DNA from: a virus | Direction: 5' to 3' (one strand) | IMG/VR virus record: IMGVR_UViG_3300031857_000110 | Length of the DNA: 64,000 nucleotides | Shown: positions 2,291 through 37,213 of the stretch, one piece after another | Layout of the letters: each line of letters starts with the position of its first letter | How positions within the stretch are numbered: position 1 is the first letter of the stretch | The notes under the pieces: model-generated | Told to the model about the DNA's origin: nothing | What the model saw: the letters and a program-made list of their open reading frames with translations, nothing else | The model's database searches: none | Translations under genes and position numbers: made by a program

Positions 2291-2374
2291 CGGCCTCTGA
2301 TGGAATAGGTAGACATAGTGGACTTAAAATCCCCTGTCCGTAAGGGCGTAAGAGTTCGAGTCTCTTGGGGCCGA
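2291..2374 (+). tRNA. tRNA-Leu (anticodon UAA), class II with long variable arm; no encoded 3' CCA
   Basis: Manual fold: acceptor CGGCCTC/GGGGCCG (7 bp, one GU), D-stem ATG/CAT, anticodon stem GTGGA/TCCCC, loop CTTAAAA, variable arm GTCC-GTAA-GGGC, T-arm AAGAG-TTCGAGT-CTCTT, discriminator A. Confidence 0.7.
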
Positions 2375-10792: not shown

Positions 10793-11533
10793 ATGATTCA
10801 TTATCTCTTACAATCAGGAAACATTCTATCCACTGAAAAATCTGCATGTCTTAGAACAGAACATAAAATTACATGGACTGCTCATTCAAATCTTTTTAAT
10901 ACTATCAATCATCTTCTATTAACAGATAAACTTTCAGATATTATTCCTGTAGGATCTGTAGAATTTTGTAGAACTTATACTGAAATTGTAGGACTTGAGT
11001 TACCTGATGATTTTTCATATGGTTCAGTAGATATTTCTTTAATAGAACCATATTTAAAAAGAAAAATCAATAAAACAACTTTTGCGTTAGCAAAAGAATG
11101 TAGTTTCATTAAGCCGGTCTACACTAAACTTTTTACTGGAGACATTAAGAATCGCATTAATGATTCATCGCTTTCAGAATTTGAAGTATGGGAATCTGAA
11201 CCTGTAGAATTTACAGCAGAATTTAGATTCTATATCTATAGGGATAAAGTTATTGGTTATTCTCGTTATGATGATTTAGACTGTGATTGTAAAGAACTAG
11301 ACCACCATTTAATTGAAAAAATTATTAAAGTGCAAAACTCTTTCCCAATTGCTTATTCAATTGATATTGGTTGGCGAAATGATATTAATGAGTGGAGTCT
11401 TATTGAATTAAATGATGCATGGGCCTTGGGTTTTTATAATAATAGTGATACCTCTTCAAAACCCCCAAAAAGCAGTGATTATGCTCTAATGATTGCAGAA
11501 AGGTGGAGAGAAATTGTAAATGGACAGATTTGA
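10793..11533 (+). CDS. hypothetical protein (246 aa)
   Basis: ORF track; no secure motif. Confidence 0.5.
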   Translation: MIHYLLQSGNILSTEKSACLRTEHKITWTAHSNLFNTINHLLLTDKLSDIIPVGSVEFCRTYTEIVGLELPDDFSYGSVDISLIEPYLKRKINKTTFALAKECSFIKPVYTKLFTGDIKNRINDSSLSEFEVWESEPVEFTAEFRFYIYRDKVIGYSRYDDLDCDCKELDHHLIEKIIKVQNSFPIAYSIDIGWRNDINEWSLIELNDAWALGFYNNSDTSSKPPKSSDYALMIAERWREIVNGQI

Positions 11534-15736: not shown

Positions 15737-16030
15737 ATGAAAAACCTTTTTGGATTTTTAACATCCTTGTTACTTCTTTTACAATTTGTTTCTCCAGCTT
15801 TTGCTAAAATTCCTAGTGGAGCAATCCCACTAGAATGGAGACCAAACTATAAAGAACAGGTTGAATATATCATTAATAATAAATGTGAATCTAATGGAAT
15901 TGTCCCATATTATGGATACACATATTACACTTGTCCTTCAGGTGAAAAATTCTGGGCGGAAGTTTTAGTTCCTGTTGATAATTCTATTCTATATTTCAAG
16001 AACCGAGACAAACATTCAGATGAATATTAA
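15737..16030 (+). CDS. small secreted protein (signal peptide MKNLFGFLTSLLLLLQFVSPAFA)
   Basis: Typical n-h-c signal peptide with AFA cleavage motif; start trimmed to the internal Met. Confidence 0.5.
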   Translation: MKNLFGFLTSLLLLLQFVSPAFAKIPSGAIPLEWRPNYKEQVEYIINNKCESNGIVPYYGYTYYTCPSGEKFWAEVLVPVDNSILYFKNRDKHSDEY

Positions 16031-16032
16031 TT

Positions 16033-16398
16033 ATGAAAATCTCTACAACACATAAAAGATTTGCAGATCATTTAGATGACCAAATCGCTCTAGAATACCC
16101 TGCACGTTTTCTAGGACCCAATTGGAAGAATGTATTGAACTTCTGGATCTATTTGGATACTTTGAGTGGTGAAGAATTTAGGTTAATTTTTGATCGTTAT
16201 TGGGCTTTAGATGAAGATGCTAGAGTTTCTGCTATAAATAATGCTCATAAAGCGGCTGAAGCGACTATAGATATTCATTATACATATACAACTCGTGGTG
16301 CCGCCCTTACACTTGCACCTGCTTATGCATCCCTTGAACTCATTGGTTCTCATAAGCTAGAGTCTCTTAATTTTCTTCCTTTGTTTCTAAACCAGTGA
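16033..16398 (+). CDS. family-A hypervariable small protein, member 1
   Basis: MKISTTHKRFADHL..LEYPARFLGPNWKNVLNFWIYLDTLS N-block and ELIGSHKLESLNFLPLFLNQ C-block. Confidence 0.75.
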   Translation: MKISTTHKRFADHLDDQIALEYPARFLGPNWKNVLNFWIYLDTLSGEEFRLIFDRYWALDEDARVSAINNAHKAAEATIDIHYTYTTRGAALTLAPAYASLELIGSHKLESLNFLPLFLNQ

Positions 16399-16766
16399 AA
16401 ATATCTTCTTCTCATCAAAAATTTGCAGATCGGTTAAATAACCAAACTGCTCTAGAATACCCTGAACGTTTTCTGGGACCTAATTGGAAGGATGTATTGA
16501 ATTTCTGGATTTATTTGGATACTTTGAGTCGTGAAGAGCTTGATAAAGTCTATGAGCATCATCGTGGTTTGAAAGACATACATATATCAAGGCGTCTTGC
16601 TTGGTGTGCTGCTAAGGATACTATAGGTTATGATTATACAAATGCAGCTGCATTTGCATATTATGTTAATTGTTATAATGCCGCTGGATGTCATGCAACC
16701 AGTGAACTCATTGGTTCTCATAAGCTTGAGACCTTGACGTTTTTTCCTTTGTTCATAAATTTTTAA
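16395..16766 (+). CDS. family-A member 2 (GTG start overlapping previous TGA)
   Basis: Same conserved N and C blocks; variable middle. Confidence 0.7.
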   Translation: MKISSSHQKFADRLNNQTALEYPERFLGPNWKDVLNFWIYLDTLSREELDKVYEHHRGLKDIHISRRLAWCAAKDTIGYDYTNAAAFAYYVNCYNAAGCHATSELIGSHKLETLTFFPLFINF

Positions 16767-16774
16767 ACTTATTC

Positions 16775-17923
16775 ATGAATTTACTTAATGGCATTGTAGA
16801 TATATTCCCATCAATAGAACCACAAAATTTTTTGGAAACTCCAAAAAGAATTAAACTTGGATTTGATCCAACAACAGATTTTTTACATTTAGGTCATGCT
16901 GTTCTTTTAAGAAAATTAAGGCAATTTCAAAATGAAAATCATACTCCTGTAATAATTATAGGTGACTTTACTGCAAGAATTGGAGATCCAACAGGAAAAT
17001 CAAAAACTAGAAAACAATTAACCAAAGAAGAAGTAGAATTCAATACCAATGAATTTTTGAATACTCTTTCAAATTTTATTGACCCCGAAAAATCTGAAAT
17101 TATTTTTAATTCTAAACATTTAGAACAATTATCTCTATCTACAATTATACAATTACAATCATTGGTAACAGTAAATCAACTCCTAGCGAAAAGGGATTTT
17201 CATCAAAGATTTGAATTACAAAGCCCTATCAGTTTGCATGAATTTATGTATCCACTACTTCAAGGATATGATAGTCATGTAATATCATCTGAAATAGAAC
17301 TTGGAGGAATTGATCAAAAATTTAACATCTCAATGGGTAGAGATGTTCAAAGACATTTCAAAAATAAAAATGAACAAATTGGAATGTTAATGCCAATTTT
17401 ATGTGGTACTGATGGTGCCAATAAAATGTCTAAAAGTTTGAATAATGCAATAAAAATTGATGAACATCCTTTAATAATGTTTTCTCAATTGGAAAAAATT
17501 CCAGATAATTTAGTAGATGAATATATTCTTCTACTCACCGACTGTAATTTGGGAGATTTTTCTCCAGATCCTAGAGAAAGGCAAAAACAAATGGCCTTTG
17601 AGATTGTTTCAGAATTTTATGGTTCTGAAGTTGCTCTAAAGTCTATGAATGAATCTCAACAGATCGTTTTGTCTAATTCAAATATATCAGATGTCCCAGA
17701 GATAGTTGTTTCACATTTGCAGTTTCCATTACCTCTTGCAACTTTATTGAGAGAAACTAAATTATCAGATAGTTCATCTGCAGCAAGAAGATCAATTCGT
17801 TCAGGTTGTATTAAATTAGATGGGATTAAAATTACAGATGAAAATATTATGGTTGATATAAATGATATTGAAAATAAAATTATAAGAATGTCAAAGAACT
17901 CTTTTCATCGTTTTGTCATGTGA
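16775..17923 (+). CDS. tyrS: tyrosyl-tRNA synthetase (class I aaRS with C-terminal S4-like domain)
   Basis: HLGH (HIGH) motif, KMSKS motif, GGIDQ, C-terminal ARRSIRSGCIKLDGIKITD S4-like; length 382 aa. Confidence 0.75.
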   Translation: MNLLNGIVDIFPSIEPQNFLETPKRIKLGFDPTTDFLHLGHAVLLRKLRQFQNENHTPVIIIGDFTARIGDPTGKSKTRKQLTKEEVEFNTNEFLNTLSNFIDPEKSEIIFNSKHLEQLSLSTIIQLQSLVTVNQLLAKRDFHQRFELQSPISLHEFMYPLLQGYDSHVISSEIELGGIDQKFNISMGRDVQRHFKNKNEQIGMLMPILCGTDGANKMSKSLNNAIKIDEHPLIMFSQLEKIPDNLVDEYILLLTDCNLGDFSPDPRERQKQMAFEIVSEFYGSEVALKSMNESQQIVLSNSNISDVPEIVVSHLQFPLPLATLLRETKLSDSSSAARRSIRSGCIKLDGIKITDENIMVDINDIENKIIRMSKNSFHRFVM

Positions 17924-17940
17924 CAGTAGTTAAACTGTCA
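17921..17940 (+). repeat. inverted repeat TGACAGT-agttaa-ACTGTCA at tyrS stop
   Basis: Perfect 7-bp arms; no T-tract. Confidence 0.4.
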
Positions 17941-18349
17941 CTATGGAATACACACACTTCACTTCAGTTTGCTAAGATGAAAAAGAAACTTGGAGATTCC
18001 CCATGTTTAAAAGTAAGTTCTTTCCTTTAATTCTTTATCTTAGTTTACTCTTTATTGGAATTTCTTTTCCCTTTGCTATTCTAATGATTTATCCAGTATC
18101 GCCCACTCACAAAATTTTTTATGAATTCTGACAACTTTATTTTATGTTATTGTGTTACTCTTCTTTTTGGTTTCGTGGGGTTTGTTAGTTATGGTACTAT
18201 TAAAAATCAACCAGAATCTCTATATAGAGAAACTTTTAATAGATCTATTTCTTGTCGTGAAACTATAGGACTAAAACAAATAACAAATTTAGACTATATT
18301 TGTGGCAAACTTCCTCAAATCTCCGAATTCCATACACCTTCTAAATAAA

Positions 18350-19222
18350 ATGACACTCAAACTTACTGCAGTACATTTAGTTGATGAGGGATCTTATTTG
18401 GTTAAGTTCCCATATAATAATAAAAATATCTTGGTTTCTGGAGTTGTACCTGAAAGTTGCAATTATGTTGTAGTTTCTAGCCTTGATGAAATTGTAGAAC
18501 TTTATACACCATCAGCAATTCTAACGCATTATACAAATGATAATGATCCAACTCAAACCATAACCCCAACAATCTATCAACAACAAGTTGATATCCTTCG
18601 TGCTAAAGGAAATTATGATGATTTTTCTGGAGAATTAGTTTTCACAAATCTTGATGATGAATATGCATATAAAAAATTCATTAAAACTTGGAACCCTTTT
18701 TATGTTAAACAAGAAACCATAAAAAGACCAGTTGAAATTGAAATAACTGAAATTCGCACAAATTCTGGAGATCCAGATATTGTATCTTTATGGAACTCTC
18801 CTGCACTAGGAGTTGATCGTAAACTGTATTCAATTAATCGTCTGGATTTAGCTGTCAAAACTTTAAGAGCCATATGTGGTGATAATAATTGGAATCTTGA
18901 GATCCCAACACATTCTGGAATTTTATATGCAAAAATTAACAATAGTTATGTTTTTAAAGGTAATGAATTTAAATTTGAGACACATTTTATTGGCACTCTT
19001 GAACAATCAAAGAGTGAAAAAGCAAGAATTATTAAACTGATCAATGATGTAATAGCCATCCGTAATGCATGTAGGAATAAGATTAATAAAAGAACTGCTG
19101 GATATGTTTTAGGAAATCTTAGAATCATTAGTTACAGTGTTCAGTCTTCTACTAAATCTAATATATCAATGAAAATTAATGATCTTATTACTGATATTGA
19201 GAATGAGCTGATTAAGGAATGA
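18350..19222 (+). CDS. hypothetical protein
   Basis: ORF; start moved to an internal ATG preceded by taaa. Confidence 0.5.
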   Translation: MTLKLTAVHLVDEGSYLVKFPYNNKNILVSGVVPESCNYVVVSSLDEIVELYTPSAILTHYTNDNDPTQTITPTIYQQQVDILRAKGNYDDFSGELVFTNLDDEYAYKKFIKTWNPFYVKQETIKRPVEIEITEIRTNSGDPDIVSLWNSPALGVDRKLYSINRLDLAVKTLRAICGDNNWNLEIPTHSGILYAKINNSYVFKGNEFKFETHFIGTLEQSKSEKARIIKLINDVIAIRNACRNKINKRTAGYVLGNLRIISYSVQSSTKSNISMKINDLITDIENELIKE

Positions 19223-19423
19223 AAGCACCCAAAGAGTACAAACAATGGATCAATAGACTGAGAGCTTTATATTCCTCTTAGATAATCCACATATGGAAAG
19301 GAAATTAAACAACAATAAAAAGCATAGAAAAATAAAAATTGAGACAATTTAACAACTGTCCACCAAATCTCAAAATTCACAAAAAATCCCTTAGTATTAA
19401 CCTACAATCAACCAAAATCAACC

Positions 19424-19960
19424 ATGAGTGAACTTCCTGAATTTATTGCATTTCCTAAAATTCCACGTCTTCAAAAAGATTGTGTAGTTACTGAAAAAAT
19501 TGATGGCACTAATGGTGTTATCTACATCACTCTTGATGGTGATATGTTTATTGGGAGCCGAAATCGTTGGATTACTGCAGACTCAGACAATGCTGGGTTT
19601 CATCGTTGGGTGATGGAAAATAAAGCTGAATTAGAGAAACTTGGACCAGGTAGACATCATGGTGAATGGTGGGGAAGTGGAATTGGTCGGGGATATAATC
19701 TCCCCAAAGGAGAAAAGCGTTTTTCTCTTTTCAATGTTCATGTTTGGAATGAAGAGAATATTCCTAGCTGTTGTCATGTAGTTCCAACTCTTTACACTGG
19801 AGAATTCAATACTAATGAAATTGAAAATGCAATGTTAAGTCTCCAAGAAATGGGTTCCCATGCTGCTCCCGGTTATATGAATCCTGAAGGAGTTATGGTC
19901 TATCATGCTGCTGCTTGTATGTACTTCAAAGCTCCATTTGACAAAAACCACAAAGGTTAA
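19424..19960 (+). CDS. minimal RNA-ligase-like nucleotidyltransferase (motif I EKIDGTN, HHGEWWG, EGVMV, FKAP)
   Basis: Covalent nucleotidyltransferase motifs I, III/IV and V arranged as in Rnl5 or RNA_ligase (PF09414)-type enzymes. Confidence 0.55.
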   Translation: MSELPEFIAFPKIPRLQKDCVVTEKIDGTNGVIYITLDGDMFIGSRNRWITADSDNAGFHRWVMENKAELEKLGPGRHHGEWWGSGIGRGYNLPKGEKRFSLFNVHVWNEENIPSCCHVVPTLYTGEFNTNEIENAMLSLQEMGSHAAPGYMNPEGVMVYHAAACMYFKAPFDKNHKG

Positions 19961-19969
19961 AACAAATCA

Positions 19970-20734
19970 ATGAAATCTGAACTATTTCAATTTGCTGAAG
20001 TTGGTGGAGCTGTTCGGGATTCTTTTCTCGGAGTTCCTTCAAAAGATATAGACTTTGTTGCAATCCCAAATAATACAAATGATTGGAATTATGCAGATGA
20101 GGCTTTTACTAATTTAGTACAGGAATTATTTCATCTAGGATTCAAAGGATTTGATAGTAATAGTGGGAACTTCATTCTAAAGCCTGAATTTTTCACTGCT
20201 AGAGTGCAAGTCCCTAAAGAGAACCCTCTTCATCAACGTACAGTTGTGGCAGATTTTGTTCTATCACGTAAAGATGGACCAAGTTCTGATGGACGTAGAC
20301 CCGATTATGTTCTACCTGGAACTTTGCTTGATGATCTTAAGCGTAGAGATTTTACCATTAATGCAATGGCAGTCTTAGACGGCGAATTGGTAGATTATTT
20401 CGGCGGTCAAAAAGATCTAGAGGATCGCTTAATTCGCTTTGTTGGAGATCCACACGAAAGAATTGCAGAAGATGGTTTAAGAGTTATGAGAGCTTTAAGA
20501 TTTGTAATCACTAAAGATTTTATGCTCCATCCAGAGACCTATGATGCTATTAATTGCAGTTTAGGTGCACAGATGTTGACAAAAGTTTCTATTGAACGTA
20601 TTAGAGAAGAGCTGGAGAAAATGTTCACCTCAAATACATTGAAAACGATTTCTATTCTCAGTGGCCTTAAAGCTGATCTTCAAGAAGCAATTTTTAGAGA
20701 TGGTTTGCGTCTGATGCCGTCTTTGAAGCATTAG
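19970..20734 (+). CDS. cca: tRNA nucleotidyltransferase (CCA-adding enzyme or poly(A) polymerase head domain)
   Basis: GGAVRDSFLG...DIDF motif of class II tRNA nucleotidyltransferases; RDFTINA motif. Confidence 0.75.
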   Translation: MKSELFQFAEVGGAVRDSFLGVPSKDIDFVAIPNNTNDWNYADEAFTNLVQELFHLGFKGFDSNSGNFILKPEFFTARVQVPKENPLHQRTVVADFVLSRKDGPSSDGRRPDYVLPGTLLDDLKRRDFTINAMAVLDGELVDYFGGQKDLEDRLIRFVGDPHERIAEDGLRVMRALRFVITKDFMLHPETYDAINCSLGAQMLTKVSIERIREELEKMFTSNTLKTISILSGLKADLQEAIFRDGLRLMPSLKH

Positions 20735-21053
20735 ATTGTGACAGATTAAAATGTGTCACCGCAAGAACCCAAACCGAGTTCCCTTGCCATATGATAATAG
20801 AGCATTAAACAAACCCTCATGCCTTTCTAGTCAATGCTTGTAAGAATTATTGGAACTGCAATTGGAGTGTCTCTCTTACTTTTCATTCTTCTCTTGAGGG
20901 GACTTCCGGTTCTGTTTCTTCTTAAAATGATTCCTCTAGGAATTCTACTTTTTGTTGCTATTGCATTCATTTATGCTGGCGTAGCAAAAGATAGCTGATC
21001 AAAATCTCTGATCTTACTGTTTAACTTACCCATTCACTTCACCCTTTTTAACT

Positions 21054-21866
21054 ATGTCTCTCGTAAAAGTTGGTCTAGGTCTTGGTGCTGGCGTCCTGGT
21101 TCTTGCACTTATTTCCGGGCAATGGACAACAATCAATACAGGTGAAAACGGACTTTACACTGGATTTGATGGCCAGGTAAAGAATGAAGTTCTCACCCCC
21201 GGTATTAAATATGATGGTTTTGGTTCAATTAAAGTCTTCAATACTCGTAAGATTACGGTGACGGCAAATGACCTTCGCCCCAAGACTAAAGATAACACCA
21301 TCATGAAGGAGATGGATGTGACCGTAACCTACAGTATCAATCCCACCTCTCTCTATGATTTCTATACTGGTTATGATATGACCAATCACTCTATCAGCGA
21401 AAATGGACAAATTCAACTCATGTCCAGTTACATTGCTCGTCTGATTACTTCTGCTGTCAATCAATCTGTGGACGAATTCCCCGCTTTGGTTGTAAACAGC
21501 AGCCTTGGACAGGTTCAAGATACGATTAAGATTAATCTAAGCGAATCTCTAAAGAAAAATGGTCTTGAGGGAAAGATTACCATTGATTCAATCATTGTTG
21601 GTAAAGCTGATCTTCCTGATACTCTTGTTGAATCTGTGAACCGTGTGGTTGCGGCCCAATCTGCAAATAAAGAGCAACAAGTGAAGACTGAAACTGCCCA
21701 ATTGAAAGCTGAAGAGAACAAGGCTCTTGCATCTACTGTGACGGCACAATCTCTTGAGTATCAACGTCTTGAAGTTCTTCGTGAAGCGATGAGGAATGGT
21801 AGCATTCAAAAAATTCTGATTAATGGTGCCAATGTTCTTTCACTTTCTGATAATGTTTTTAAGTGA
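21054..21866 (+). CDS. SPFH/band-7 (prohibitin/HflK-like) membrane protein
   Basis: N-terminal TM helix; coiled-coil QSANKEQQVKTETAQLKAEENKALA...YQRLEVLREA typical of SPFH C-termini; locally higher GC. Confidence 0.5.
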   Translation: MSLVKVGLGLGAGVLVLALISGQWTTINTGENGLYTGFDGQVKNEVLTPGIKYDGFGSIKVFNTRKITVTANDLRPKTKDNTIMKEMDVTVTYSINPTSLYDFYTGYDMTNHSISENGQIQLMSSYIARLITSAVNQSVDEFPALVVNSSLGQVQDTIKINLSESLKKNGLEGKITIDSIIVGKADLPDTLVESVNRVVAAQSANKEQQVKTETAQLKAEENKALASTVTAQSLEYQRLEVLREAMRNGSIQKILINGANVLSLSDNVFK

Positions 21867-26489: not shown

Positions 26490-26687
26490 ATGTTTGTTCA
26501 AATTTCTCCTGAAAAAAACATTGAAGTCTATTATATGAACAAGGAGAAGTGTGATAGCTATAATGATTTTCATGGGTATAATGAAAATGACAGTAATTAT
26601 ATCAGAGAAGGATATTATTATGAGAATATGATTGGAAATTTTAAAAGTCAGAAAGAAGCAATTGAACATGCCAAAGCTAAACTATGA
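26490..26687 (+). CDS. hypothetical protein
   Basis: ORF; ATGA overlap with next gene. Confidence 0.4.
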   Translation: MFVQISPEKNIEVYYMNKEKCDSYNDFHGYNENDSNYIREGYYYENMIGNFKSQKEAIEHAKAKL

Positions 26688-27040
26688 AAATCTCTACAAC
26701 ACATAAAAGATTTGCAGATCGGTTAAGAGGCCAACCTGCCCTAAAATATCCTGAATATTTCTTAGGACCTAATTGGAAGGATGTATTGAATTTCTGGATT
26801 TATTTGGATACTTTGAGTGATGATGATATTAGGTTAATTGATATGAGATATTTTGCTTTATGGGATTTAAATACCTTAAGGAATCTTGCTTGGAAAGCTG
26901 CTAAGGATACTATAGGTGTGTATTATGCAGAAGCATCTATTCTCACTCCTACATATGCTGGGACTTATGTAACCAGTGAACTTATTGGTTCTCATAAGCT
27001 TAAGTCTCTTAAGTTTCTCCCTTTGTTTTTAAACCTATGA
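26684..27040 (+). CDS. family-A member 3
   Basis: Conserved N and C blocks. Confidence 0.75.
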   Translation: MKISTTHKRFADRLRGQPALKYPEYFLGPNWKDVLNFWIYLDTLSDDDIRLIDMRYFALWDLNTLRNLAWKAAKDTIGVYYAEASILTPTYAGTYVTSELIGSHKLKSLKFLPLFLNL

Positions 27041-27408
27041 AAATCTCTACAACACATAAAAAATTTGCAGATCGGTTATGGGACCAACCTGTTTTAGAAT
27101 ACCCTGAACGATTTCTAGGACCTAATTGGAAGAATGTATTGAACTTCTGGATTTATTTGGATACTTTGAGTGCTGAGGATACTGATATAATTCATATGCG
27201 CTATTTGGTTTTAGGTGAAGATGCTATAGTTTATGCTGAAAACCATGATTGGAAAGCTGCTAGGGATACTATAGGTTTTACATATGCAGATGCAACTTGT
27301 CATATAACTTTTACATTTCCAAGCATTTATACAACTCTTGAACTCATTGGTTCTCATAATCTTGAGTATTTGACTTTTCTTCCATTGTTTTTAAAACATA
27401 AAATTTAA
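27037..27408 (+). CDS. family-A member 4
   Basis: Conserved N and C blocks; ATGA overlap. Confidence 0.75.
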   Translation: MKISTTHKKFADRLWDQPVLEYPERFLGPNWKNVLNFWIYLDTLSAEDTDIIHMRYLVLGEDAIVYAENHDWKAARDTIGFTYADATCHITFTFPSIYTTLELIGSHNLEYLTFLPLFLKHKI

Positions 27409-27627: not shown

Positions 27628-28866
27628 ATGGAACTCCGACTGCAACAAAAAAAGGCCATTGAAGTTCTTTCTCAGGCAAATAGAGGAATTATTGCAATGG
27701 CTCCAGGCTCAGGGAAAACTCTCATTCAAATTCATGATTCAAAAAGAATTTTTGAACAATCTGAAGAACCACAGACTGTTGTAGTTGTAGCGCCAAGAAT
27801 ACTTCTTGCTTCGCAGTTATCTTTTGATTATGGAAAGCACATTAATTGTGCTAAGTATCTCCATGTTCACTCAAAAATTGGAAAGGTAAATCATTATCAT
27901 ACAACAGATAAAGAAAATATCAGACAATGGTGTGAAATTCATAAGGAGCACCATAAACTAATTTTTACCACCTATCATTCACTCAAAAAGATTTATAAAT
28001 CAGGGATTACGGTAAATACATATATGTTTGATGAATCACATAATTCAACATCTGCTGGGTTTCATGAATATGTGAAAAAGGTAAGTGATAATAATCAAAG
28101 ATGCTTCCATTTTAGTGGTACACCTAGATTTAGCAGGGCACCTAAAAATCCGAAAAAGACAAAAAAACCTGGAATGAATGATCCAGTTTATGGTGAAATT
28201 ATAGTAAAAGCCACAGCAGCAGAAATGATTAAGCATGGTTATATCTTAAAGCCAAGGGTCATTTCTCATTATCTTGAATGGGTTGAAGAGAGAACTGCAC
28301 AACATGATGCAACAGATATCTTAAATATCATTAAGACATACAATCTTTCTAAACTTCTTATAAACGTAAGAAAAACATCAAATATGATGGAAATGCTTTC
28401 AGAGACAAATTTTCAAGAGTCTTTGAGAGAACTTGGCTATGATTTATTACATATTACTTCAAATTATGGTCCAGTGTATAATGGTAAAAAAATTAAAAGG
28501 GACAGATTTTTCCAACTCTTAGATAAGCTTGGTGAATCTATGGATAAAAAATATGTCATTTTAAATTATTCAATTTTAGGTGAAGGAATAAACATTAAAT
28601 CATTAGATGCTGTACTCTTACTAAGGCAACTAAATCTAATAAAACTTATTCAAACTATAGGGCGAGCAATCAGACTCTCTTCTGAGGATCAAAGGGCTAT
28701 TGATAATGGAAGCTTAAAGGCATGTGATTATATGAATTATCTTAAACCTGAAGGTTTAGTAATTATACCTGTTTATGATAAAAGACTTTTAGAGCAATCT
28801 AAAAGTATTACAACCACTGTTGAAGATGTCTATGAAAAGGGAGAACTCCCAATTATGCAAGTTTAA
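27628..28866 (+). CDS. SF2 DExH-box helicase (ResIII-like)
   Basis: Motif I APGSGKT, motif II DESH, motif III SGTP, motif VI QTIGRAIR. Confidence 0.7.
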   Translation: MELRLQQKKAIEVLSQANRGIIAMAPGSGKTLIQIHDSKRIFEQSEEPQTVVVVAPRILLASQLSFDYGKHINCAKYLHVHSKIGKVNHYHTTDKENIRQWCEIHKEHHKLIFTTYHSLKKIYKSGITVNTYMFDESHNSTSAGFHEYVKKVSDNNQRCFHFSGTPRFSRAPKNPKKTKKPGMNDPVYGEIIVKATAAEMIKHGYILKPRVISHYLEWVEERTAQHDATDILNIIKTYNLSKLLINVRKTSNMMEMLSETNFQESLRELGYDLLHITSNYGPVYNGKKIKRDRFFQLLDKLGESMDKKYVILNYSILGEGINIKSLDAVLLLRQLNLIKLIQTIGRAIRLSSEDQRAIDNGSLKACDYMNYLKPEGLVIIPVYDKRLLEQSKSITTTVEDVYEKGELPIMQV

Positions 28867-28870
28867 ACTC

Positions 28871-29230
28871 ATGAAAATCTCTTCAACACATCAACAATTT
28901 GCAAATGATTTAAAAGACCAAACTGCTCTAGAATACCCTGAACGTTTTCTAGGACCCAATTGGAAGAATGTCCTGAACTTCTGGATTTACTTGGATACTT
29001 TGAATGATGAAGAGAGTGAGTTAATTAATAAGCGTTATTGGGCTTCAGAAGATTTAATGAATTTAACAAATCTTTCTTTTAAAACTGCTGAAGCTATTAT
29101 AGGGCATGAAAATGCATCTGTAGCTTGGAGTGTCACTCCTTCATTTTCATCTGCTTGTGCAACCTGTGAACTCATTGGCTCACATAATCTAGAGTCTTTT
29201 AAGTTTCTTCCATTGTTTCTAAATATGTGA
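28871..29230 (+). CDS. family-A member 5
   Basis: Conserved blocks; start trimmed to MKISSTHQQ. Confidence 0.7.
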   Translation: MKISSTHQQFANDLKDQTALEYPERFLGPNWKNVLNFWIYLDTLNDEESELINKRYWASEDLMNLTNLSFKTAEAIIGHENASVAWSVTPSFSSACATCELIGSHNLESFKFLPLFLNM

Positions 29231-29303: not shown

Positions 29304-29816
29304 ATGAACATTTTTGCAACCTCTTTTTGTCCAGAACAGTCTGCAATTGTTCTCCCAGATTTACATATTAAAAAGATGCCAATTGAATGCTGTCAAATGC
29401 TTGCTTATGTTGCATCTCCTTGGATTCACAATTACGGAACTATTCCTAAAAAAGATGGAACACCATACATGACAAAAAGAAACAGCCCTCGCCTTAAACA
29501 TCCATGTACGCTATGGGTAGCAGAATCTATTCATAATGCTCATTGGCTAATTTATCATGGGTTTATGTTGTGCGAGGAATATTTTAGACGTTATGAAAAA
29601 CAAATTGCATGTTATGGATCTCTTTTAAATGCTCTAGAAATATTTCCTGATGGTGACTTTAATAAGATTACACCATTTATTAGAGCTATGCCTGATCATT
29701 TGAAGTTTGATAAGACAATTGACACATTTACAGCCTATAAAAAATATCTTGCATCAAAATCATGGGCAGCAAACAATTATAAAAAACTTCCATCCCGCAA
29801 ACCAAATTGGATTTAA
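29304..29816 (+). CDS. hypothetical protein; weak resemblance to pyrimidine-dimer DNA glycosylase (DenV/Pyr_excise) family
   Basis: N-terminal start pattern and NAHWLIYHGFMLCEEYFRRYEK versus family block GHVLFFYDKGLYLQKRYDE, both recalled from memory; weak. Confidence 0.3.
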   Translation: MNIFATSFCPEQSAIVLPDLHIKKMPIECCQMLAYVASPWIHNYGTIPKKDGTPYMTKRNSPRLKHPCTLWVAESIHNAHWLIYHGFMLCEEYFRRYEKQIACYGSLLNALEIFPDGDFNKITPFIRAMPDHLKFDKTIDTFTAYKKYLASKSWAANNYKKLPSRKPNWI

Positions 29817-29822
29817 TTATAA

Positions 29823-30781: not shown

Positions 30782-30783
30782 TA

Positions 30784-32688: not shown

Positions 32689-34233
32689 ATGTCACTTAAA
32701 ATTTCCGAAAAAGCTAATCTTAATTATCTTGCAAAAGTTGTAAAACTAACAAATCTTAGAAAGCATCCAAATGCAGATAAATTACAGATAACCACTATTG
32801 ATGGAAATAATATCATTACTGGCTTAGATGCTAAGGATGGTGATCTTTATGTGTATTTTTCTCTTGAAAGTTCAATCAATTTGAATTATATTTCATTTTC
32901 AAATGGATTTAGGGAAAGCTCTTTAAATACTAATAAAGAAGTTGTTGGATTTTTTGAACCAAGAGGTAGAGTGCGGGCGATCTCTCTTCGGGGTGAAAAA
33001 TCATGTGGATATATTTGTCCAGTAAAAAATATCAATGAATGGCTTAATACCTTTACGTCTTTCAATATTACTGAAGAACATCAAGATGTAGAATTTGATA
33101 TGATTTGTGATACGGTAATGTGCGAAAAATATATAAATCGTGAAGCACTTCTTAAAATCTTAAAGGCCAATAAAACTCCAAAGGGTATTAAAAAATTAGC
33201 AAAAGAAACAAAGCTAATTGAAGGTCAATTCGCATTTCATGTTGATACTGCACATCTTCAAAAATATATCTATAAAATCAATCCGCATGATATCATTCAT
33301 ATTTCCAAAAAGCTTCATGGAACTTCTGCTATTGTTGGAAATATTTTGTGTAAGCGTAAATTATCGCTTAAAGATTCCATTGCAAGATTTTTTGGGGTAA
33401 ATGTAAATGAAACAGAATATCAATTGATTTGGTCTTCTAGAACAGTTGTAAAGAATGGCAACTATTATTTGTCTTGGCAAGAAACCCTCTGGAAAAATTT
33501 TCTATATTATCTCAGCAGTTACAAAAAACCATTTGAATCTTGGGTATCCTTGATTTTAGCTGAAGGTGACCAGAAAAGAGAAGAATTTTTTGGTGATTTG
33601 CAATATCATAGATCAACTCCTTTGCAACTCTATAAAGATTTGCAAGAGTGGAGTAAAATTATCAAAAATCCACAAACATCTAATCATTATTATTCATATG
33701 ATATTTGGAGGGATGTTGCTATCCAGCTTGAAGATTTTCTTTATAAAGGAATGACATTTTATTGTGAAGTTGTTGGTTATACAAAGGAAGGAGCATATCT
33801 TCAAAAGGGTTATGACTATGGTTGCGATCTAGGAAACTTTGCAATTTACATCTATCGCATCACATATACAAATCCTTCAGGGAAGATATTTGAATTTTCA
33901 ACTCAGCAAGTGAAGGCATATTGCAATAAACTTGGCCTAAACATGGTCCCAGAACTTTATTATGGGAGAGCAAAAGACCTATTTGACATTCCTGTAGATG
34001 ATAATTGGCATGATAATTTTATTGAATTAGTTAGCCAGAATTATCTTGAAAAGGATTGTGACATGTGTGTAAATAAAGTTCCAGATGAAGGTATTGTACT
34101 CCGTAAGGAAGATATTGACATTGAACCATACAAATATATAAGTTTTGCATTTAAACTGCGAGAAACAAAAAATGCAGATAATGGCGAAATTGATCTAGAA
34201 ACAATTGAATCTGAACAGTTAGGTGATGCATAA
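32689..34233 (+). CDS. RNA ligase (Rnl2-like nucleotidyltransferase) with N-terminal tRNA-binding OB (EMAP/Myf-like) domain
   Basis: N-terminus LRKHPNADKLQITTIDGNNIITGLDAKDGDLYV matches the tRNA-binding domain signature; motif I KLHGTS, motif IV EGIVLRKE, motif V FKL. Confidence 0.65.
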   Translation: MSLKISEKANLNYLAKVVKLTNLRKHPNADKLQITTIDGNNIITGLDAKDGDLYVYFSLESSINLNYISFSNGFRESSLNTNKEVVGFFEPRGRVRAISLRGEKSCGYICPVKNINEWLNTFTSFNITEEHQDVEFDMICDTVMCEKYINREALLKILKANKTPKGIKKLAKETKLIEGQFAFHVDTAHLQKYIYKINPHDIIHISKKLHGTSAIVGNILCKRKLSLKDSIARFFGVNVNETEYQLIWSSRTVVKNGNYYLSWQETLWKNFLYYLSSYKKPFESWVSLILAEGDQKREEFFGDLQYHRSTPLQLYKDLQEWSKIIKNPQTSNHYYSYDIWRDVAIQLEDFLYKGMTFYCEVVGYTKEGAYLQKGYDYGCDLGNFAIYIYRITYTNPSGKIFEFSTQQVKAYCNKLGLNMVPELYYGRAKDLFDIPVDDNWHDNFIELVSQNYLEKDCDMCVNKVPDEGIVLRKEDIDIEPYKYISFAFKLRETKNADNGEIDLETIESEQLGDA

Positions 34234-34645: not shown

Positions 34646-34995
34646 AAATCTCTAGAACACATAAAAGATTTGCCGATCATTTAGATGACCAAACTGCTTT
34701 AGAATACCCTGAACGATTTCTAGGACCCAATTGGAAAGATGTACTGAACTTTTGGATTTATTACGATACTTTGAGTGATGATGTTCTTAGGTTAATTATT
34801 AGGCGCCATCAGGCTATAGAGGATTTAAATTATGTAAAGAATCTTTCTTGGAATGCTGCTGAAAATACTATAGGTGAGTATTATACGCGGGTAGCTTATG
34901 ATGTTACACATTCTCTTAGTTATTTAACCTGCGAACTCATTGGTTCACATAAGCTTGAGACTCTCAATTTTCTTCCTTTGTTTTTGAATTTATGA
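34642..34995 (+). CDS. family-A member 8
   Basis: Conserved blocks; ATGA overlaps on both sides. Confidence 0.75.
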   Translation: MKISRTHKRFADHLDDQTALEYPERFLGPNWKDVLNFWIYYDTLSDDVLRLIIRRHQAIEDLNYVKNLSWNAAENTIGEYYTRVAYDVTHSLSYLTCELIGSHKLETLNFLPLFLNL

Positions 34996-35450
34996 AACAT
35001 CTTCCATCTCTGCTTATTTTATGTGGACTTCCTGGTTCAGGTAAGAGCACTTATTGTAAACAATATTCAAATTCAAATTTTGTAAGACTTTCATCAGATG
35101 ATTATATTGAAAAAGTGGCAAGAGACCAAGGAAAAACATACAATGAAGTTTTTTCATATGCAATTAGAGATGCTGATAGATATTTTAAACAAAAATTAGA
35201 CTATTATGCAGACACTGAATATAACATAATTATTGATAGAACAAATCTTACTGTAAAAACTAGAAGAAAGATTATCAACAAATTTAAAAATCATCAAAAG
35301 ATGATTGTATTTTTTAATGTGCCATTAAATACCATAAAAGAAAGAAACATCAGGCCTGGAAAAATATTTTCTGAAGAAATGTTAGATGATATGTATAGTA
35401 GATTGGAAATACCAACAGAACTTGAAGCTCAAGTTGTGACAGTTAGCTAA
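34992..35450 (+). CDS. P-loop polynucleotide 5'-kinase (T4 Pnk kinase-domain-like)
   Basis: Walker A GLPGSGKST and IIDRTNL (compare T4 Pnk IISDTNL). Confidence 0.65.
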   Translation: MKHLPSLLILCGLPGSGKSTYCKQYSNSNFVRLSSDDYIEKVARDQGKTYNEVFSYAIRDADRYFKQKLDYYADTEYNIIIDRTNLTVKTRRKIINKFKNHQKMIVFFNVPLNTIKERNIRPGKIFSEEMLDDMYSRLEIPTELEAQVVTVS

Positions 35451-35501: not shown

Positions 35502-36206
35502 TTGATTCGGAAACTAATGAATTGCGTTCTTGTTGGGGACATTCATTCTCAATTTTCAAAACTTCAAAATGCTCTTAATTACATTGAAAATACTATTGAG
35601 GATTATTATATCATATTTTTAGGAGATGCATTTGATTCAAGATGTGAAGAATCAAATTCTGTTGGAGTCTACAAAACAATTAAAAATTTACAAGATAAAA
35701 ACAAAGCAACTCTCATTCATTCAAATCATCAATGGAAACTTCAACGATATCTTTATGGAAATCCTGTAAGAATTGATCAATCTCTACAGAGAACTCTTGA
35801 TGATTTTCAGAGTTCAGATGTTACATCTATTGAACTTTTAACTTGGCTTGAGTCTTTACCATTTGCTTGTGCATTTAAAGATATTAATGAACAAGAATAT
35901 CGCTGCGCCCATGCATATCATAGTTCTAAGCTTCTTATTCCTAGAACTTATGATGGCATACATTGTACTTATAAAGTAAGTGCAAAAATGCGAGATAAAT
36001 TGATTTATGGTGCATTATATGAGGGAACCCGGCTGTCATGGTGGGAACATGAATCAACAAATGAATGGATTCGGGTTTCTGGACATTATCATACTGTTGA
36101 AATCTCATATACAAAAAAAGCATTGGTATTGGATTCATGTTGCGGGGATGAAAATGGTCTTCTCTCTGTTTTTAATGTAAACACATGGGAGATTTTTCAA
36201 TTTTGA
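35502..36206 (+). CDS. calcineurin-like metallophosphoesterase (candidate 2',3'-phosphatase, bacterial Pnkp-like)
   Basis: GDIHS, GDAFDSR, SNHQ motifs. Confidence 0.6.
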   Translation: MIRKLMNCVLVGDIHSQFSKLQNALNYIENTIEDYYIIFLGDAFDSRCEESNSVGVYKTIKNLQDKNKATLIHSNHQWKLQRYLYGNPVRIDQSLQRTLDDFQSSDVTSIELLTWLESLPFACAFKDINEQEYRCAHAYHSSKLLIPRTYDGIHCTYKVSAKMRDKLIYGALYEGTRLSWWEHESTNEWIRVSGHYHTVEISYTKKALVLDSCCGDENGLLSVFNVNTWEIFQF

Positions 36207-37197: not shown

Positions 37198-37213
37198 TCA
37201 TCCTTCAGATTAA

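What the first reader, a model, noticed from the sequence alone, without database searches (positions are those of the whole stretch)
16775..20734. tRNA maintenance cluster: TyrRS, minimal RNA-ligase-like enzyme and CCA-adding enzyme, with a CCA-less tRNA-Leu elsewhere (2291..2374)
A phage-encoded TyrRS (HIGH, KMSKS, S4 domain) is unusual. The adjacent 178-aa protein carries ligase motifs (EKIDGTN, HHGEWWG, EGVMV) at roughly half the length of standard RNA ligases. The CCA enzyme (GGAVRD) would be needed to mature the phage tRNA, which lacks an encoded CCA. It could also repair CCA ends removed by host nucleases.
Basis: partly seen in the sequence, partly recalled or inferred. Interest (0 to 1): 0.6.

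Follow-up and report, generated by a model that had tools for sequence, protein, structure and literature searches.

The report
Cyanophage tRNA repair and charging genes
A large cyanophage-like virus carries, side by side, a complete tyrosyl-tRNA synthetase, a half-size RNA-ligase-like enzyme and a half-size CCA-adding enzyme; all three are real and probably keep tRNAs working during infection, but each belongs to a gene family already seen in large phages.

Summary
16775-17923 is an intact bacterial type-2 TyrRS, with HLGH, KMSKS, YPLLQGYD and an S4-like C-terminal domain. 19424-19960 is a 178-aa ligase nucleotidyltransferase domain with motifs I-V and no extra domain. 19970-20734 is a 254-aa class-II CCA-type enzyme with head and neck only and motifs A-E invariant. 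tRNA-Leu(UAA) at 2291-2374 has no encoded CCA.

The window resembles Synechococcus phages B3/B23 (Kyanoviridae). The small ligase and the short CCA enzyme are not oddities. Each belongs to a family with thousands of metagenomic homologues of the same length.

Ligase-CCA adjacency is limited to close relatives. In one related viral contig the two genes share a 6-kb island with Rnl1, a polynucleotide kinase and a HAD phosphatase. In distant phages the small ligase sits among DNA-replication genes and has no conserved neighbour.

The 306-aa gene inside the cluster is a cyanophage backbone gene of unknown fold.

Phage aaRS, CCA-adding and tRNA-ligation genes are already described. I found no biochemistry for the 178-aa ligase family. 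Verdict: new member of a known kind, modest interest.

The parts
16775..17923 (+). Tyrosyl-tRNA synthetase, 382 aa. Bacterial type 2 (Thermus/TyrZ-like), with a C-terminal S4-like domain.
   Evidence: TIGR00234 330 bits, cut-off 113.8. Pfam tRNA-synt_1b 4e-67, S4, SYY_C-terminal. Best solved relatives are 6bqy (E 2e-75) and 1h3e, Thermus TyrRS. HLGH 38-41, KMSKS 217-221, YPLLQGYD 159-166. Nearest named cellular relative is a Prochlorococcaceae TyrRS at 51%.
18121..18348 (+). 75-aa ORF of unknown function. Not evidently tRNA-related.
   Evidence: ORF list. A same-size gene is called at the same position in the syntenic contig L006.
18302..19222 (+). 306-aa conserved cyanophage protein of unknown function. 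The true start is probably the ATG at 18350.
19424..19960 (+). 178-aa ATP-dependent RNA-ligase-like enzyme. It is a nucleotidyltransferase domain only, with no OB or C-terminal domain.
   Evidence: PF09414 44.3 bits. phrog_548. Motifs I (K25), Ia (R46), III (E81), IIIa (F103/N104), IV (E155-G156) and V (K169) are invariant in 43 homologues. AF2 pLDDT 88.4. Best folds are Naegleria NgrRnl and T4 Rnl2, TMq about 0.6. The family profile aligns motifs I-IIIa to T4 Rnl2, E 0.004.
19970..20734 (+). 254-aa class-II CCA-type tRNA nucleotidyltransferase. Head and neck domains only. It starts 9 nt after the ligase stop codon.
   Evidence: PolyA_pol and PolyA_pol_RNAbd. phrog_24229 and phrog_2244 'tRNA nucleotidyltransferase'. 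Matches only the N-terminal part of solved CCA enzymes, ending at residue 248 of the 420-residue 6ibp chain and residue 204 of the 404-residue 1miv chain. Motif A-E residues are invariant in 31 family members, together with a conserved C-terminal peptide. 61% identical to the annotated CCA enzyme of Synechococcus phage B23.
2291..2374 (+). tRNA-Leu(UAA), type II with a long variable arm, no encoded CCA.
   Evidence: ARAGORN. RF00005 41.7 bits. The 3' flank is TTT. Phage B23 has an 84-nt tRNA-Leu-TAA that also lacks CCA.
32689..34233 (+). Second RNA ligase, 514 aa, with an N-terminal OB fold plus a nucleotidyltransferase domain (DraRnl/Rnl5-type architecture).
   Evidence: PF21189 PHA02142 OB at 14-112 and PF09414 at 327-483. 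phrog_968 'RNA ligase' 1.6e-53. Read by eye from the translation: KKLHGTS, FYCEVVGY, DEGIVLRKE. Not a recent paralogue of the small ligase.
34992..35450 (+). P-loop polynucleotide-kinase-like protein, 152 aa. Candidate 5'-end healing enzyme.
   Evidence: AAA_33 3.4e-19, KTI12, Zeta_toxin. phrog_505 'polynucleotide kinase'. Matches the kinase segment of the 737-position profile phrog_8238.
35502..36206 (+). Calcineurin-like metallophosphoesterase, 234 aa. Candidate 3'-end healing enzyme.
   Evidence: PF00149 Metallophos. Matches positions 174-302 of phrog_8238, directly after that profile's kinase segment.
45388..45765 (+). cREC domain protein, 125 aa (cyclic-phosphate-processing receiver domain).
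   Evidence: PF20274 cREC_REC 87.5 bits. The domain is proposed to act on 2',3'-cyclic RNA ends and is reported as linked to RNA ligases (PMC7824862).

Best explanation
The stretch lies in the variable early-gene region of a large T4-like cyanophage related to Synechococcus phages B3/B23 (Kyanoviridae). It encodes three enzymes that act on tRNA.

1. A complete TyrRS, probably captured from a picocyanobacterial host. It charges tRNA-Tyr independently of the host enzyme.
2. A 178-aa ligase made only of the covalent nucleotidyltransferase domain. It would form a Lys25-AMP adduct and seal 3'-OH/5'-PO4 breaks in RNA.
3. A 254-aa head-plus-neck CCA-type nucleotidyltransferase, probably co-transcribed with the ligase. 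It would rebuild or complete tRNA 3' ends.

These genes work alongside a second cassette 12 kb downstream (OB-fold ligase, Pnk-like kinase, metallophosphoesterase) and a cREC protein. Together they form a dispersed toolkit that heals, seals, re-tails and recharges tRNA. The most likely role is to keep translation running when host tRNA-targeting nucleases or starvation responses damage the tRNA pool. Maturing the phage's own CCA-less tRNA is a secondary role.

Shown: domain identities, motif integrity, gene order, and conservation in relatives.
Inferred: all enzymatic activities, the substrates, the co-transcription, and the counter-defence role.
For: - Domain and motif identity of all three enzymes.
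- Ligase fold: AF2 pLDDT 88.4, best matches NgrRnl and T4 Rnl2.
- Only 9 nt separate the ligase stop from the CCA start.
- The block TyrRS / 75 aa / 306 aa / ligase / CCA / Band7 is conserved at 94-97% identity in an independent assembly, L006 and L007.
- Other RNA-repair genes in the window: OB-ligase, kinase, metallophosphoesterase, cREC, RNase T.
- L015, a 140-kb viral contig, carries Rnl1, a kinase, a HAD PNKP phosphatase, the small ligase and the CCA enzyme within 6 kb.
- In L004/L005 the small ligase is about 1 kb from an Rnl1-type ligase and about 8 kb from a HAD_PNKP gene. In L008/L009 it is about 4 kb from the CCA gene.
- Related TyrRS genes sit in similar contexts. In L094 TyrRS lies among Rnl1, phosphoesterases, an OB-ligase and NADAR. 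In L096 the order is PTH2, TyrRS, phosphoesterase, with 7 tRNA genes in the 21-kb locus, all within about 4 kb of TyrRS.
- Phage affiliation: the CCA enzyme (61%) and the UvrD helicase (56%) both hit Synechococcus phage B23 best. A Kyano_Gp96 domain is also present.
- The concept has precedent in jumbo and huge phages (PMC7824862; PMC7162821).
Against: - No activity has been measured for this ligase family or for the short CCA family in anything I could find.
- Removing the extra domain from characterised relatives cripples them. DraRnl without its N-terminal domain loses overall nick sealing and self-adenylylation and keeps only sealing of a pre-adenylylated nick (PMC1807946). A domain-less ligase may therefore not be a complete ligase on its own.
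- Across 91 loci the small ligase has no conserved neighbour.
- In Caulobacter, Rhizobium and Mycobacterium phages it lies among DNA-replication and nucleotide-metabolism genes.
- The CCA-type enzyme lacks the body and tail domains and scores below every NCBIfam equivalog cut-off, 135 against 290 at best. Its product (CCA, CC, A or poly(A)) cannot be read from sequence.
- No tRNA-Tyr is present in the 64-kb window.
- Promoter and terminator scans are at background level, so an operon is not demonstrated.
Confidence: 0.6

Rival explanations
1. The adjacency is coincidental. These are three independently acquired accessory genes that landed in a hyperplastic region of a cyanomyovirus and work separately. 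TyrRS would be a translation-boosting auxiliary gene. The CCA enzyme would be for routine tRNA maturation and turnover. The small ligase would be a nick sealer serving replication or recombination, for example at RNA-DNA junctions, rather than tRNA repair.
For: - No conserved neighbour for the small ligase in 91 loci; CCA adjacency in only 4.
- In CcrBL9 the ligase sits between DNA polymerase I and a Dda-like helicase. In Rhizobium phage RHph_Y1_10 it sits near an HNH endonuclease, a DNA methylase and RusA. In Mycobacterium phage Zaka it sits between ThyX and DNA Pol I.
- B23 has the CCA enzyme but neither a TyrRS nor a small-ligase hit.
- The intervening 306-aa gene is a backbone gene unrelated to tRNA.
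- L006 has an extra 214-aa gene inserted between the 306-aa gene and the ligase, which shows the region is fluid.
Against: - Within the cyanophage-like clade (at least 70% ligase identity) the ligase repeatedly lies near RNA-repair genes: L015, L004/5, L008/9.
- TyrRS relatives also sit in tRNA/RNA-repair neighbourhoods.
- The ligase matches RNA-ligase models (PF09414, Rnl2, NgrRnl) better than DNA ligases.
Confidence: 0.25
2. The 178-aa protein is not an autonomous polynucleotide ligase. It may be a partial enzyme that only self-adenylylates, or only seals pre-adenylylated ends, and needs a separate RNA-binding partner. Or it may use the ligase fold for another adenylyl-transfer reaction.
For: - It lacks the N-terminal OB domain of Rnl5/DraRnl and the C-terminal domain of Rnl2.
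- DraRnl without its N domain cannot adenylylate itself or seal a 5'-PO4 nick (PMC1807946).
- The family has features not seen in the aligned segment of T4 Rnl2: invariant C116-C117, and a conserved N-terminal F7/F10/K12/R15 segment.
Against: - All six ligase motifs, including the motif V lysine, are invariant across a very large family of constant length. That argues for complete ligase chemistry under strong selection.
- No conserved partner gene was found next to it.
Confidence: 0.1
3. The 254-aa nucleotidyltransferase is not a CCA-adding enzyme. It would be a poly(A) polymerase, an A-adding or CC-adding enzyme, or an RNA-tailing enzyme that marks host or damaged RNA for decay.
For: - Class-II CCA enzymes and bacterial poly(A) polymerases share the head and neck motifs.
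- The protein also hits pcnB models: 85 bits to TIGR01942, and PDB poly(A) polymerases at E about 1e-16.
- It is below all CCA equivalog cut-offs.
- The body and tail domains, which I recall as helping to bind tRNA and set specificity, are absent.
Against: - The best matches are consistently bona fide CCA-adding enzymes: 6ibp at 5.7e-27, 1miv at 6e-25, PRK13299 at 135 bits.
- The EDxxR nucleotide-templating motif and the segment between the head strand and motif B are present and invariant.
- The gene sits with tRNA-related genes here and in L015.
Confidence: 0.05

Closest known systems
Phage T4 tRNA repair pathway (Pnkp plus Rnl1, with Rnl2) and the RNA-repair gene sets described for jumbo phages (PMC7824862)
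   Same: A phage carries ATP-dependent RNA ligase(s), a 5'-kinase, 3'-phosphoesterases, a cREC domain and a CCA-adding enzyme. The presumed role is to reverse damage by host tRNA nucleases. The window holds all of these component classes.
   Different: The kinase and the phosphatase are separate genes. The phosphatase is a metallophosphoesterase, as in bacterial Pnkp, not a HAD domain as in T4 Pnkp. No Rnl1 gene was found among the window ORFs scanned. One of the two ligases is a bare nucleotidyltransferase domain. The genes are dispersed over about 30 kb rather than forming one operon.
T4 Rnl2 and Naegleria/Deinococcus Rnl5-type nick-sealing RNA ligases (NgrRnl, DraRnl)
   Same: Same nucleotidyltransferase fold, TMq about 0.6. 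Motifs I, Ia, III and IIIa align residue for residue with T4 Rnl2. Motifs IV and V are conserved in the family.
   Different: 178 aa against 335-342 aa. There is no C-terminal domain (Rnl2) and no N-terminal OB domain (Rnl5). In DraRnl that domain is needed for adenylylation and for sealing a 5'-PO4 nick. The segment between motifs IIIa and IV is about 50 aa, which I recall as much shorter than in Rnl2. Sequence similarity is marginal: E 0.004 by profile, none by single sequence.
Class-II bacterial CCA-adding enzymes (Geobacillus 1miv, Planococcus 6ibp)
   Same: Head and neck domains with motifs A-E: GGxVRD...DxD, RRD, EDxxR, and the motif E glutamate.
   Different: About 150 C-terminal residues (body and tail) are missing. 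In their place is a short conserved peptide, AIFRDGLRLMPxLK. There is an insertion of about 30 aa after motif A. The score is below the curated equivalog cut-offs.
Bacterial type-2 TyrRS (Thermus thermophilus 1h3e; 6bqy), and phage or huge-phage aaRS genes
   Same: Full catalytic domain, tyrosine-binding residues, KMSKS and the C-terminal S4-like domain. Phage-borne aaRS that are related to but distinct from host enzymes are documented. TyrRS is annotated in several jumbo phages.
   Different: It is slightly shorter, 382 aa against chains of 408-432 aa. It is only 51% identical to the nearest named cellular TyrRS, from Prochlorococcaceae. The TyrRS search of the cultured-phage collection listed no cyanophage among the 30 rows shown or the named organism groups. 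Related copies occur only on a few metagenomic contigs of 140-280 kb.

Membership tests
Tyrosyl-tRNA synthetase (class Ic, TIGR00234) | Whole-protein HMM score above the curated equivalog cut-off, and higher than for TrpRS | tested here: met
   tyrS 330.1 bits against 113.8. trpS 50.1 bits against 176.75.
Tyrosyl-tRNA synthetase (class Ic, TIGR00234) | HIGH and KMSKS signature motifs | tested here: met
   HLGH at 38-41 and KMSKS at 217-221.
Tyrosyl-tRNA synthetase (class Ic, TIGR00234) | Tyrosine-binding residues (Asp in GD...GDP; Tyr, Gln and Asp in YPxxQxYD) | tested here: met
   GDFTARIGDP at 63-72 and YPLLQGYD at 159-166, aligned with the same residues of 6bqy. Which residues bind tyrosine is from my own knowledge of Bacillus TyrRS.
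Tyrosyl-tRNA synthetase (class Ic, TIGR00234) | C-terminal S4-like tRNA-binding domain of bacterial TyrRS | tested here: met
   PF01479 S4 at 320-364 and PF22421 at 304-364.
Tyrosyl-tRNA synthetase (class Ic, TIGR00234) | Aminoacylation of tRNA-Tyr | not testable with these tools
   Needs an enzyme assay.
ATP-dependent polynucleotide ligase, RNA ligase family PF09414 | Motif I KxDGxN with the nucleophilic lysine | tested here: met
   TEKIDGTN, with K25 invariant in 43 sequences. Aligns with EKIHGTN of T4 Rnl2; I take its lysine to be K35, from memory.
ATP-dependent polynucleotide ligase, RNA ligase family PF09414 | Motifs Ia, III, IIIa, IV and V | tested here: met
   R46, E81 (GEWWG), F103/N104 (FSLFN), E155-G156 and K169 are invariant. 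Motifs I-IIIa align with Rnl2. Pfam 44.3 bits against 27. Motifs IV and V were assigned by position and conservation, not by an explicit alignment to a solved ligase.
Rnl2 family (T4 Rnl2 type) | C-terminal helical domain appended to the nucleotidyltransferase domain | tested here: not met
   The protein ends 9 residues after the motif V lysine (178 aa). Family lengths are about 175-200 aa.
Rnl5 family (DraRnl/NgrRnl, TIGR02306) | N-terminal OB-like domain, and a score above the TIGR02306 cut-off | tested here: not met
   Only 18 residues precede motif I. TIGR02306 scores 15.4 bits against 151.15. The window's other ligase, at 32689-34233, does carry the OB domain.
Class-II CCA-adding enzyme | Head-domain motif A (GGxVRD...DxD) and motifs B-E (RRD, motif C, EDxxR, motif E) | tested here: met
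   G12, G13, R16, D17, D26, D28, R125, R126, D127, E167, D168, R171 and E214 are invariant in 31 sequences. Pfam head and RNA-binding (neck) domains are above cut-off.
Class-II CCA-adding enzyme | Body and tail domains, and a score above the curated equivalog cut-off | tested here: not met
   The alignment ends at residue 248 of the 420-residue 6ibp chain and residue 204 of the 404-residue 1miv chain, and the protein is 254 aa. The best NCBIfam score is 135.3 bits against 290.
Class-II CCA-adding enzyme | Template-independent synthesis of exactly C-C-A on tRNA | not testable with these tools
   Needs an enzyme assay. Sequence cannot separate CCA, CC, A or poly(A) specificity once the C-terminal half is absent.
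Phage heal-and-seal tRNA repair system (T4 Pnkp/Rnl type) | A 5'-kinase, a 3'-phosphoesterase and an RNA ligase encoded together | tested here: met
   These lie at 32689-36206, outside the finding's coordinates: ligase, AAA_33 kinase, Metallophos. Within 16775-20734 there is only a ligase domain and the CCA enzyme.
Phage heal-and-seal tRNA repair system (T4 Pnkp/Rnl type) | Demonstrated reversal of damage by a host anticodon nuclease | not testable with these tools
   The host and its defence systems are unknown.

The most novel reading that the evidence does not exclude
The 178-aa protein stands for a very abundant, biochemically untouched family of self-sufficient 'bare nucleotidyltransferase-domain' RNA ligases. 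These would be the smallest polynucleotide ligases known. They would do without the accessory domain that the characterised Rnl2 and Rnl5 ligases carry. In cyanophages the ligase would work as a streamlined pair with an equally pared-down head-plus-neck CCA-adding enzyme to restore broken tRNAs.
Probability: 0.3. Interest if true: 0.6.

Novelty: new member of a known kind. Interest (0 to 1): 0.35.

Why it matters
This adds a T4-like cyanophage lineage to the phages known to carry their own synthetase together with tRNA repair and 3'-end rebuilding enzymes. That implies hosts of this lineage, probably picocyanobacteria judging by the phage's relatives, attack or starve the tRNA pool during infection.

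It also draws attention to two very abundant 'half-size' enzyme families: a 178-aa ligase and an enzyme of about 250 aa of the CCA-adding type. I found no biochemical characterisation of either. If the bare ligase domain is a complete ligase, it would revise the view that an accessory domain is required for adenylylation and nick sensing. It could also be a compact tool enzyme.

The gene set itself fits established ideas about large-phage counter-defence and is not surprising to a specialist.

Tried and rejected
1. Megablast of 16000-21000 against cultured phages found nothing. The phage was placed by protein similarity instead.
2. I tested whether the 'nucleotidyltransferase' next to the small ligase in Caulobacter phage CcrBL9 matches the window's CCA enzyme or the 306-aa protein. 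It matches neither, and it has no Pfam hit.
4. I looked for a conserved partner gene of the small ligase by clustering all + strand ORFs within 3 kb in 91 loci. None is shared by more than 8 loci.
5. Single-sequence pattern scans for TyrRS relatives in viral and genome collections were unproductive, because the patterns were too lineage-specific. An exhaustive HMMER search replaced them.
6. Promoter and terminator scans across the cluster were at background level, so they give no operon evidence.
7. A single-sequence PDB search with the small ligase found nothing. A profile search plus a fold search was needed.
8. The 180-aa gene at 36185-36727, which follows the CCA gene in L008-L010, looked like a possible repair partner. 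It is the Toprim part of a DNA primase.
9. The afdb50 fold library was unavailable.
10. Literature searches found no biochemical study of the roughly 180-aa ligase family or of phage head-plus-neck CCA enzymes.

Full report
**Setting.** The window is 31-39% G+C, and nearly all sizeable ORFs are on the + strand. It is packed with small ORFs. It has no near-identical DNA match among cultured phages.

Protein similarity places it near Synechococcus phages B3 and B23 (Kyanoviridae, about 244 kb). The CCA-type enzyme is 61% identical to theirs and the UvrD-like helicase 56%. The ORF at 58955-59497 matches Pfam Kyano_Gp96. B23 also carries an 84-nt tRNA-Leu-TAA. Related metagenomic contigs of 140-280 kb carry cyanophage hallmark genes: Fe_bilin_red, AdoMet_dc, Photo_RC and pentapeptide proteins.

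**Check of the observation.**

*TyrRS, 16775-17923 (382 aa).*
- It matches Pfam tRNA-synt_1b (4e-67) plus the S4 and SYY C-terminal domains.
- It scores 330 bits on the tyrS equivalog TIGR00234 (cut-off 113.8) and only 50 bits on trpS.
- HLGH (38-41), KMSKS (217-221), GDFTARIGDP (63-72) and YPLLQGYD (159-166) are all present.
- The best solved relatives are type-2 bacterial TyrRS: 6bqy at E 2e-75, then Thermus 1h3e.

*Small ligase, 19424-19960 (178 aa).* It matches PF09414 RNA_ligase at 44 bits against a cut-off of 27, and phrog_548.

*CCA-type enzyme, 19970-20734 (254 aa).* It matches the PolyA_pol head and the RNA-binding neck domain, and the phage 'tRNA nucleotidyltransferase' PHROGs.

*tRNA.* ARAGORN finds a single tRNA, Leu(UAA), at 2291-2374. 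Rfam confirms it at 41.7 bits in the sensitive run. The discriminator base is followed by TTT.

**The small ligase.**
- A database search returned at least 7,990 homologues. Nearly all of the 120 listed are 175-213 aa and reach up to 87% identity.
- In a 43-sequence alignment these residues are invariant: K25 in TEKIDGTN (motif I), R46 (Ia), E81 in GEWWG (III), F103/N104 (IIIa), E155-G156 (IV), K169 (V) and K177. A C116-C117 pair is invariant too.
- The AlphaFold model is confident, with mean pLDDT 88.4.
- Its best PDB matches are the Naegleria nick-sealing RNA ligase NgrRnl and T4 Rnl2, with TM-score about 0.6 on the query. DNA ligases follow.
- A family profile aligns motifs I to IIIa with T4 Rnl2 at E 0.004. 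A single-sequence search finds nothing.

So this is a bare nucleotidyltransferase domain of the Rnl2/Rnl5 kind. It has neither the Rnl2 C-terminal domain nor the Rnl5 N-terminal OB domain. That matters for function. DraRnl deprived of its N domain loses self-adenylylation and 5'-PO4 nick sealing, and keeps only sealing of a pre-adenylylated nick (PMC1807946).

In cultured phages the family is annotated 'RNA ligase'. Hits include Caulobacter CcrBL9 at 55%, Rhizobium RHph_Y1_10, and many Mycobacterium phages. I found no biochemical study of it.

**The CCA-type enzyme.**
- It matches only the N-terminal part of solved CCA-adding enzymes. The match ends at residue 248 of the 420-residue Planococcus chain 6ibp and residue 204 of the 404-residue Geobacillus chain 1miv. 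Those regions are the head and neck domains. The body and tail are absent.
- Its scores on the NCBIfam CCA equivalogs are best among all families but below cut-off, 135 against 290.
- The family of 241-255 aa proteins is very large, with 7,557 hits. Matches occur in 465 cultured-phage records.
- In 31 members the catalytic residues of motifs A-E are invariant. A C-terminal peptide, AIFRDGLRLMPxLK, is conserved in place of the missing domains.
- The identity of the product (CCA, or another tail) cannot be decided from sequence.

**Is it a cluster?**
- The ligase stop and the CCA start are 9 nt apart. There are gaps of about 200 nt after TyrRS and before the ligase.
- A 35-kb scaffold from an independent assembly (L006) has the same order at 94-97% identity: TyrRS, 75 aa, 306 aa, ligase, CCA, Band7. 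It has one extra 214-aa gene before the ligase.
- Beyond that, conservation is patchy. I clustered all + strand ORFs within 3 kb of the ligase in 91 loci: the window, 80 IMG/VR contigs and 10 other loci. The commonest neighbour family occurs in only 8 loci. The CCA enzyme is adjacent in 4.
- In Caulobacter, Rhizobium and Mycobacterium phages the ligase lies among DNA polymerase, helicase, RusA, ThyX and RNR genes.
- Within the cyanophage-like clade (at least 70% ligase identity) an RNA-repair association recurs:
  - L015 has Rnl1, an AAA_33 kinase, a HAD PNKP phosphatase, DUF6717, two unknown genes, the small ligase, one unknown gene, and the CCA enzyme, all within 6 kb.
  - L004/L005 have an Rnl1-type ligase about 1 kb away and a HAD_PNKP gene about 8 kb away.
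  - L008/L009 have the CCA gene about 4 kb away, plus RNase T.

**The 306-aa gene inside the cluster.** It is not tRNA-specific. It has 49 homologues and a confident model. It has no informative structural match. It lies next to TyrRS in L094. It also occurs in psbA-bearing cyanomyovirus contigs that lack TyrRS.

Twelve kilobases downstream lies a fuller heal-and-seal cassette:
- A 514-aa ligase with an N-terminal PHA02142 OB fold and a PF09414 domain, at 32689-34233.
- A 152-aa AAA_33 polynucleotide-kinase-like protein, at 34992-35450.
- A 234-aa calcineurin-like metallophosphoesterase, at 35502-36206.

The kinase and the phosphoesterase match consecutive segments of the 737-position PHROG 8238, labelled 'RNA ligase'. 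That layout, kinase then phosphoesterase in one long protein, is the one I recall for bacterial Pnkp.

A cREC domain protein lies at 45388-45765, and an RNase T-like exonuclease at 30194-30781. cREC is proposed to act on cyclic phosphate ends and is reported as linked to RNA ligases (PMC7824862).

**Origin and relatives of the TyrRS.**
- An exhaustive HMMER search found only three representatives at 47% identity or above.
- One, at 51%, is a cluster that includes a Prochlorococcaceae cyanobacterium TyrRS. This points to capture from a picocyanobacterial host.
- The other two are on large phage-like contigs.
  - L094 (282 kb, 58%) has Rnl1, a phosphoesterase, TyrRS, the 306-aa homologue, an OB-type RNA ligase, NADAR, another phosphoesterase and Band7.
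  - L096 (142 kb, 47%) has PTH2, TyrRS and a phosphoesterase. Seven tRNA genes lie in the 21-kb locus, all within about 4 kb of TyrRS, and NAD-salvage genes are nearby.
- TyrRS thus repeatedly sits in translation-rescue and RNA-repair neighbourhoods.
- The TyrRS search of the cultured-phage collection listed no cyanophage among the rows shown or the named organism groups. Its hits include annotated TyrRS genes in jumbo phages of enterobacteria and Xanthomonas, plus unannotated metagenomic records and short or fragmentary records labelled as phage.

**Most likely mechanism (inferred).** Host nucleases that cut tRNA typically leave 2',3'-cyclic phosphate and 5'-OH ends. The proposed steps are:
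1. cREC and the metallophosphoesterase would clear the 3' end.
2. The kinase would phosphorylate the 5' end.
3. The OB-ligase and/or the small ligase would seal the break through a lysyl-AMP intermediate.
4. The CCA-type enzyme would rebuild damaged or missing 3' termini, and complete the phage's own CCA-less tRNA.
5. TyrRS would recharge tRNA-Tyr independently of the host enzyme.

None of these activities has been shown for these proteins. The main rival is that the genes are independent accessory genes that merely share a hyperplastic region. In that reading the small ligase serves DNA or RNA-DNA nick sealing, as its context in distant phages suggests.

**Comparison with what is known.** Large phages carrying tRNA synthetases, CCA-adding enzymes and genes for ligating cleaved tRNAs are documented (PMC7162821). 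So are RNA-repair gene sets with Rnl1/Rnl2 ligases, kinases, phosphoesterases, cRec and CCA-adding enzymes (PMC7824862).

- The TyrRS is a full member of its family.
- The small ligase passes the motif tests of the ligase superfamily. It fails the domain-architecture tests of both Rnl2 and Rnl5.
- The CCA-type enzyme passes the catalytic-motif tests. It fails on domain completeness and on the curated score.

Both are best described as abundant, uncharacterised short variants of known families.

**Verdict.** This is a new member of a known kind, of modest interest. The most interesting open question is whether the 178-aa bare ligase domain is a complete ligase.

Noticed in passing
window 16033-16398, 16395-16766, 26684-27040, 27037-27408, 28820-29230, 29823-30197, 34277-34645, 34642-34995, 40439-40858, 42108-42512, 44014-44643 (C-terminal part), 45723-46211, 46258-46854 (C-terminal part): At least 13 paralogous copies of a protein module of about 120 aa are scattered through 64 kb. 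The module reads 'MKISTTHKRFAD...ALEYPERFLGPNWKxVLNFWIYLDTLS...ELIGSHKLExLxFLPLFLN'. Two copies lie directly upstream of TyrRS and two lie between the OB-ligase and the kinase. None of the copies scanned has a Pfam hit, and one has no PHROG hit. This is an unusually expanded family of unknown function.
   Followed up: partly
window 32689-36206: A second RNA-repair cassette that is not in the finding: a 514-aa OB-fold RNA ligase, a 152-aa Pnk-like kinase and a 234-aa metallophosphoesterase. Two copies of the paralog family are inserted between the ligase and the kinase.
   Followed up: yes
window 45388-45765: A stand-alone cREC (cyclic-phosphate-processing receiver) domain protein, 87.5 bits. 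The literature proposes that this domain acts with RNA ligases.
   Followed up: partly
window 10793-11533: An R2K-clade ATP-grasp protein: PF18299 7e-22, PF14243. It matches phrog_7313, of unknown function.
   Followed up: no
window 36928-39956: A ThiF/E1-like protein at 39243-39956 follows two ORFs with no Pfam hit (387 and 273 aa) and a small 89-aa ORF. This could be a ubiquitin-like or adenylation system. It was not examined.
   Followed up: no
window 3627-9761: A 2,044-aa ORF with no Pfam match at all.
   Followed up: no
window 29304-31290: Three adjacent genes: a DenV-like pyrimidine-dimer glycosylase (Pyr_excise), an RNase T-family exonuclease and a DprA-like/SLOG protein (phrog_768). 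The same trio is conserved in L006.
   Followed up: partly
window 21054-21866; L006 5243-6059: An SPFH/Band 7 protein follows the CCA gene. It is the most conserved flanking gene, 79-95% identical in five related loci and 86% in L094. In L006 and L007 it is called as two ORFs of 100 and 164 aa, which may reflect a frameshift or an assembly error.
   Followed up: no
L006 2733-3377 versus window 19223-19423: The near-identical relative has an extra 214-aa gene between the 306-aa gene and the small ligase. It has no Pfam hit. The window has only a 201-nt A-rich spacer at that position. This is an insertion or deletion inside the 'cluster'.
   Followed up: partly
L096 9186-14803: In a 142-kb contig, the TyrRS homologue is flanked by an archaeal/eukaryotic-type peptidyl-tRNA hydrolase (PTH2) and a metallophosphoesterase. 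Seven tRNA genes lie nearby. NAD-salvage genes (NAMPT, a NadR-like/NUDIX protein, NAPRTase) follow.
   Followed up: partly
window 2291-2374: The Rfam whole-window run at gathering threshold reported no tRNA. The same model scores 41.7 bits, above its 29-bit gathering score, when only 261 bases are searched. This is probably a speed-filter miss and is worth remembering when a 'no Rfam hit' result is used as evidence.
   Followed up: yes
window 36185-36727; L008 8731-9246; L092 15474-15989: A 180-aa stand-alone Toprim segment of a DNA primase (phrog_849 4e-31). It follows the phosphoesterase in the window, and directly follows the CCA gene in L008-L010. In phage B23 its homologue lies about 2.7 kb downstream of the CCA gene.
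   Followed up: partly
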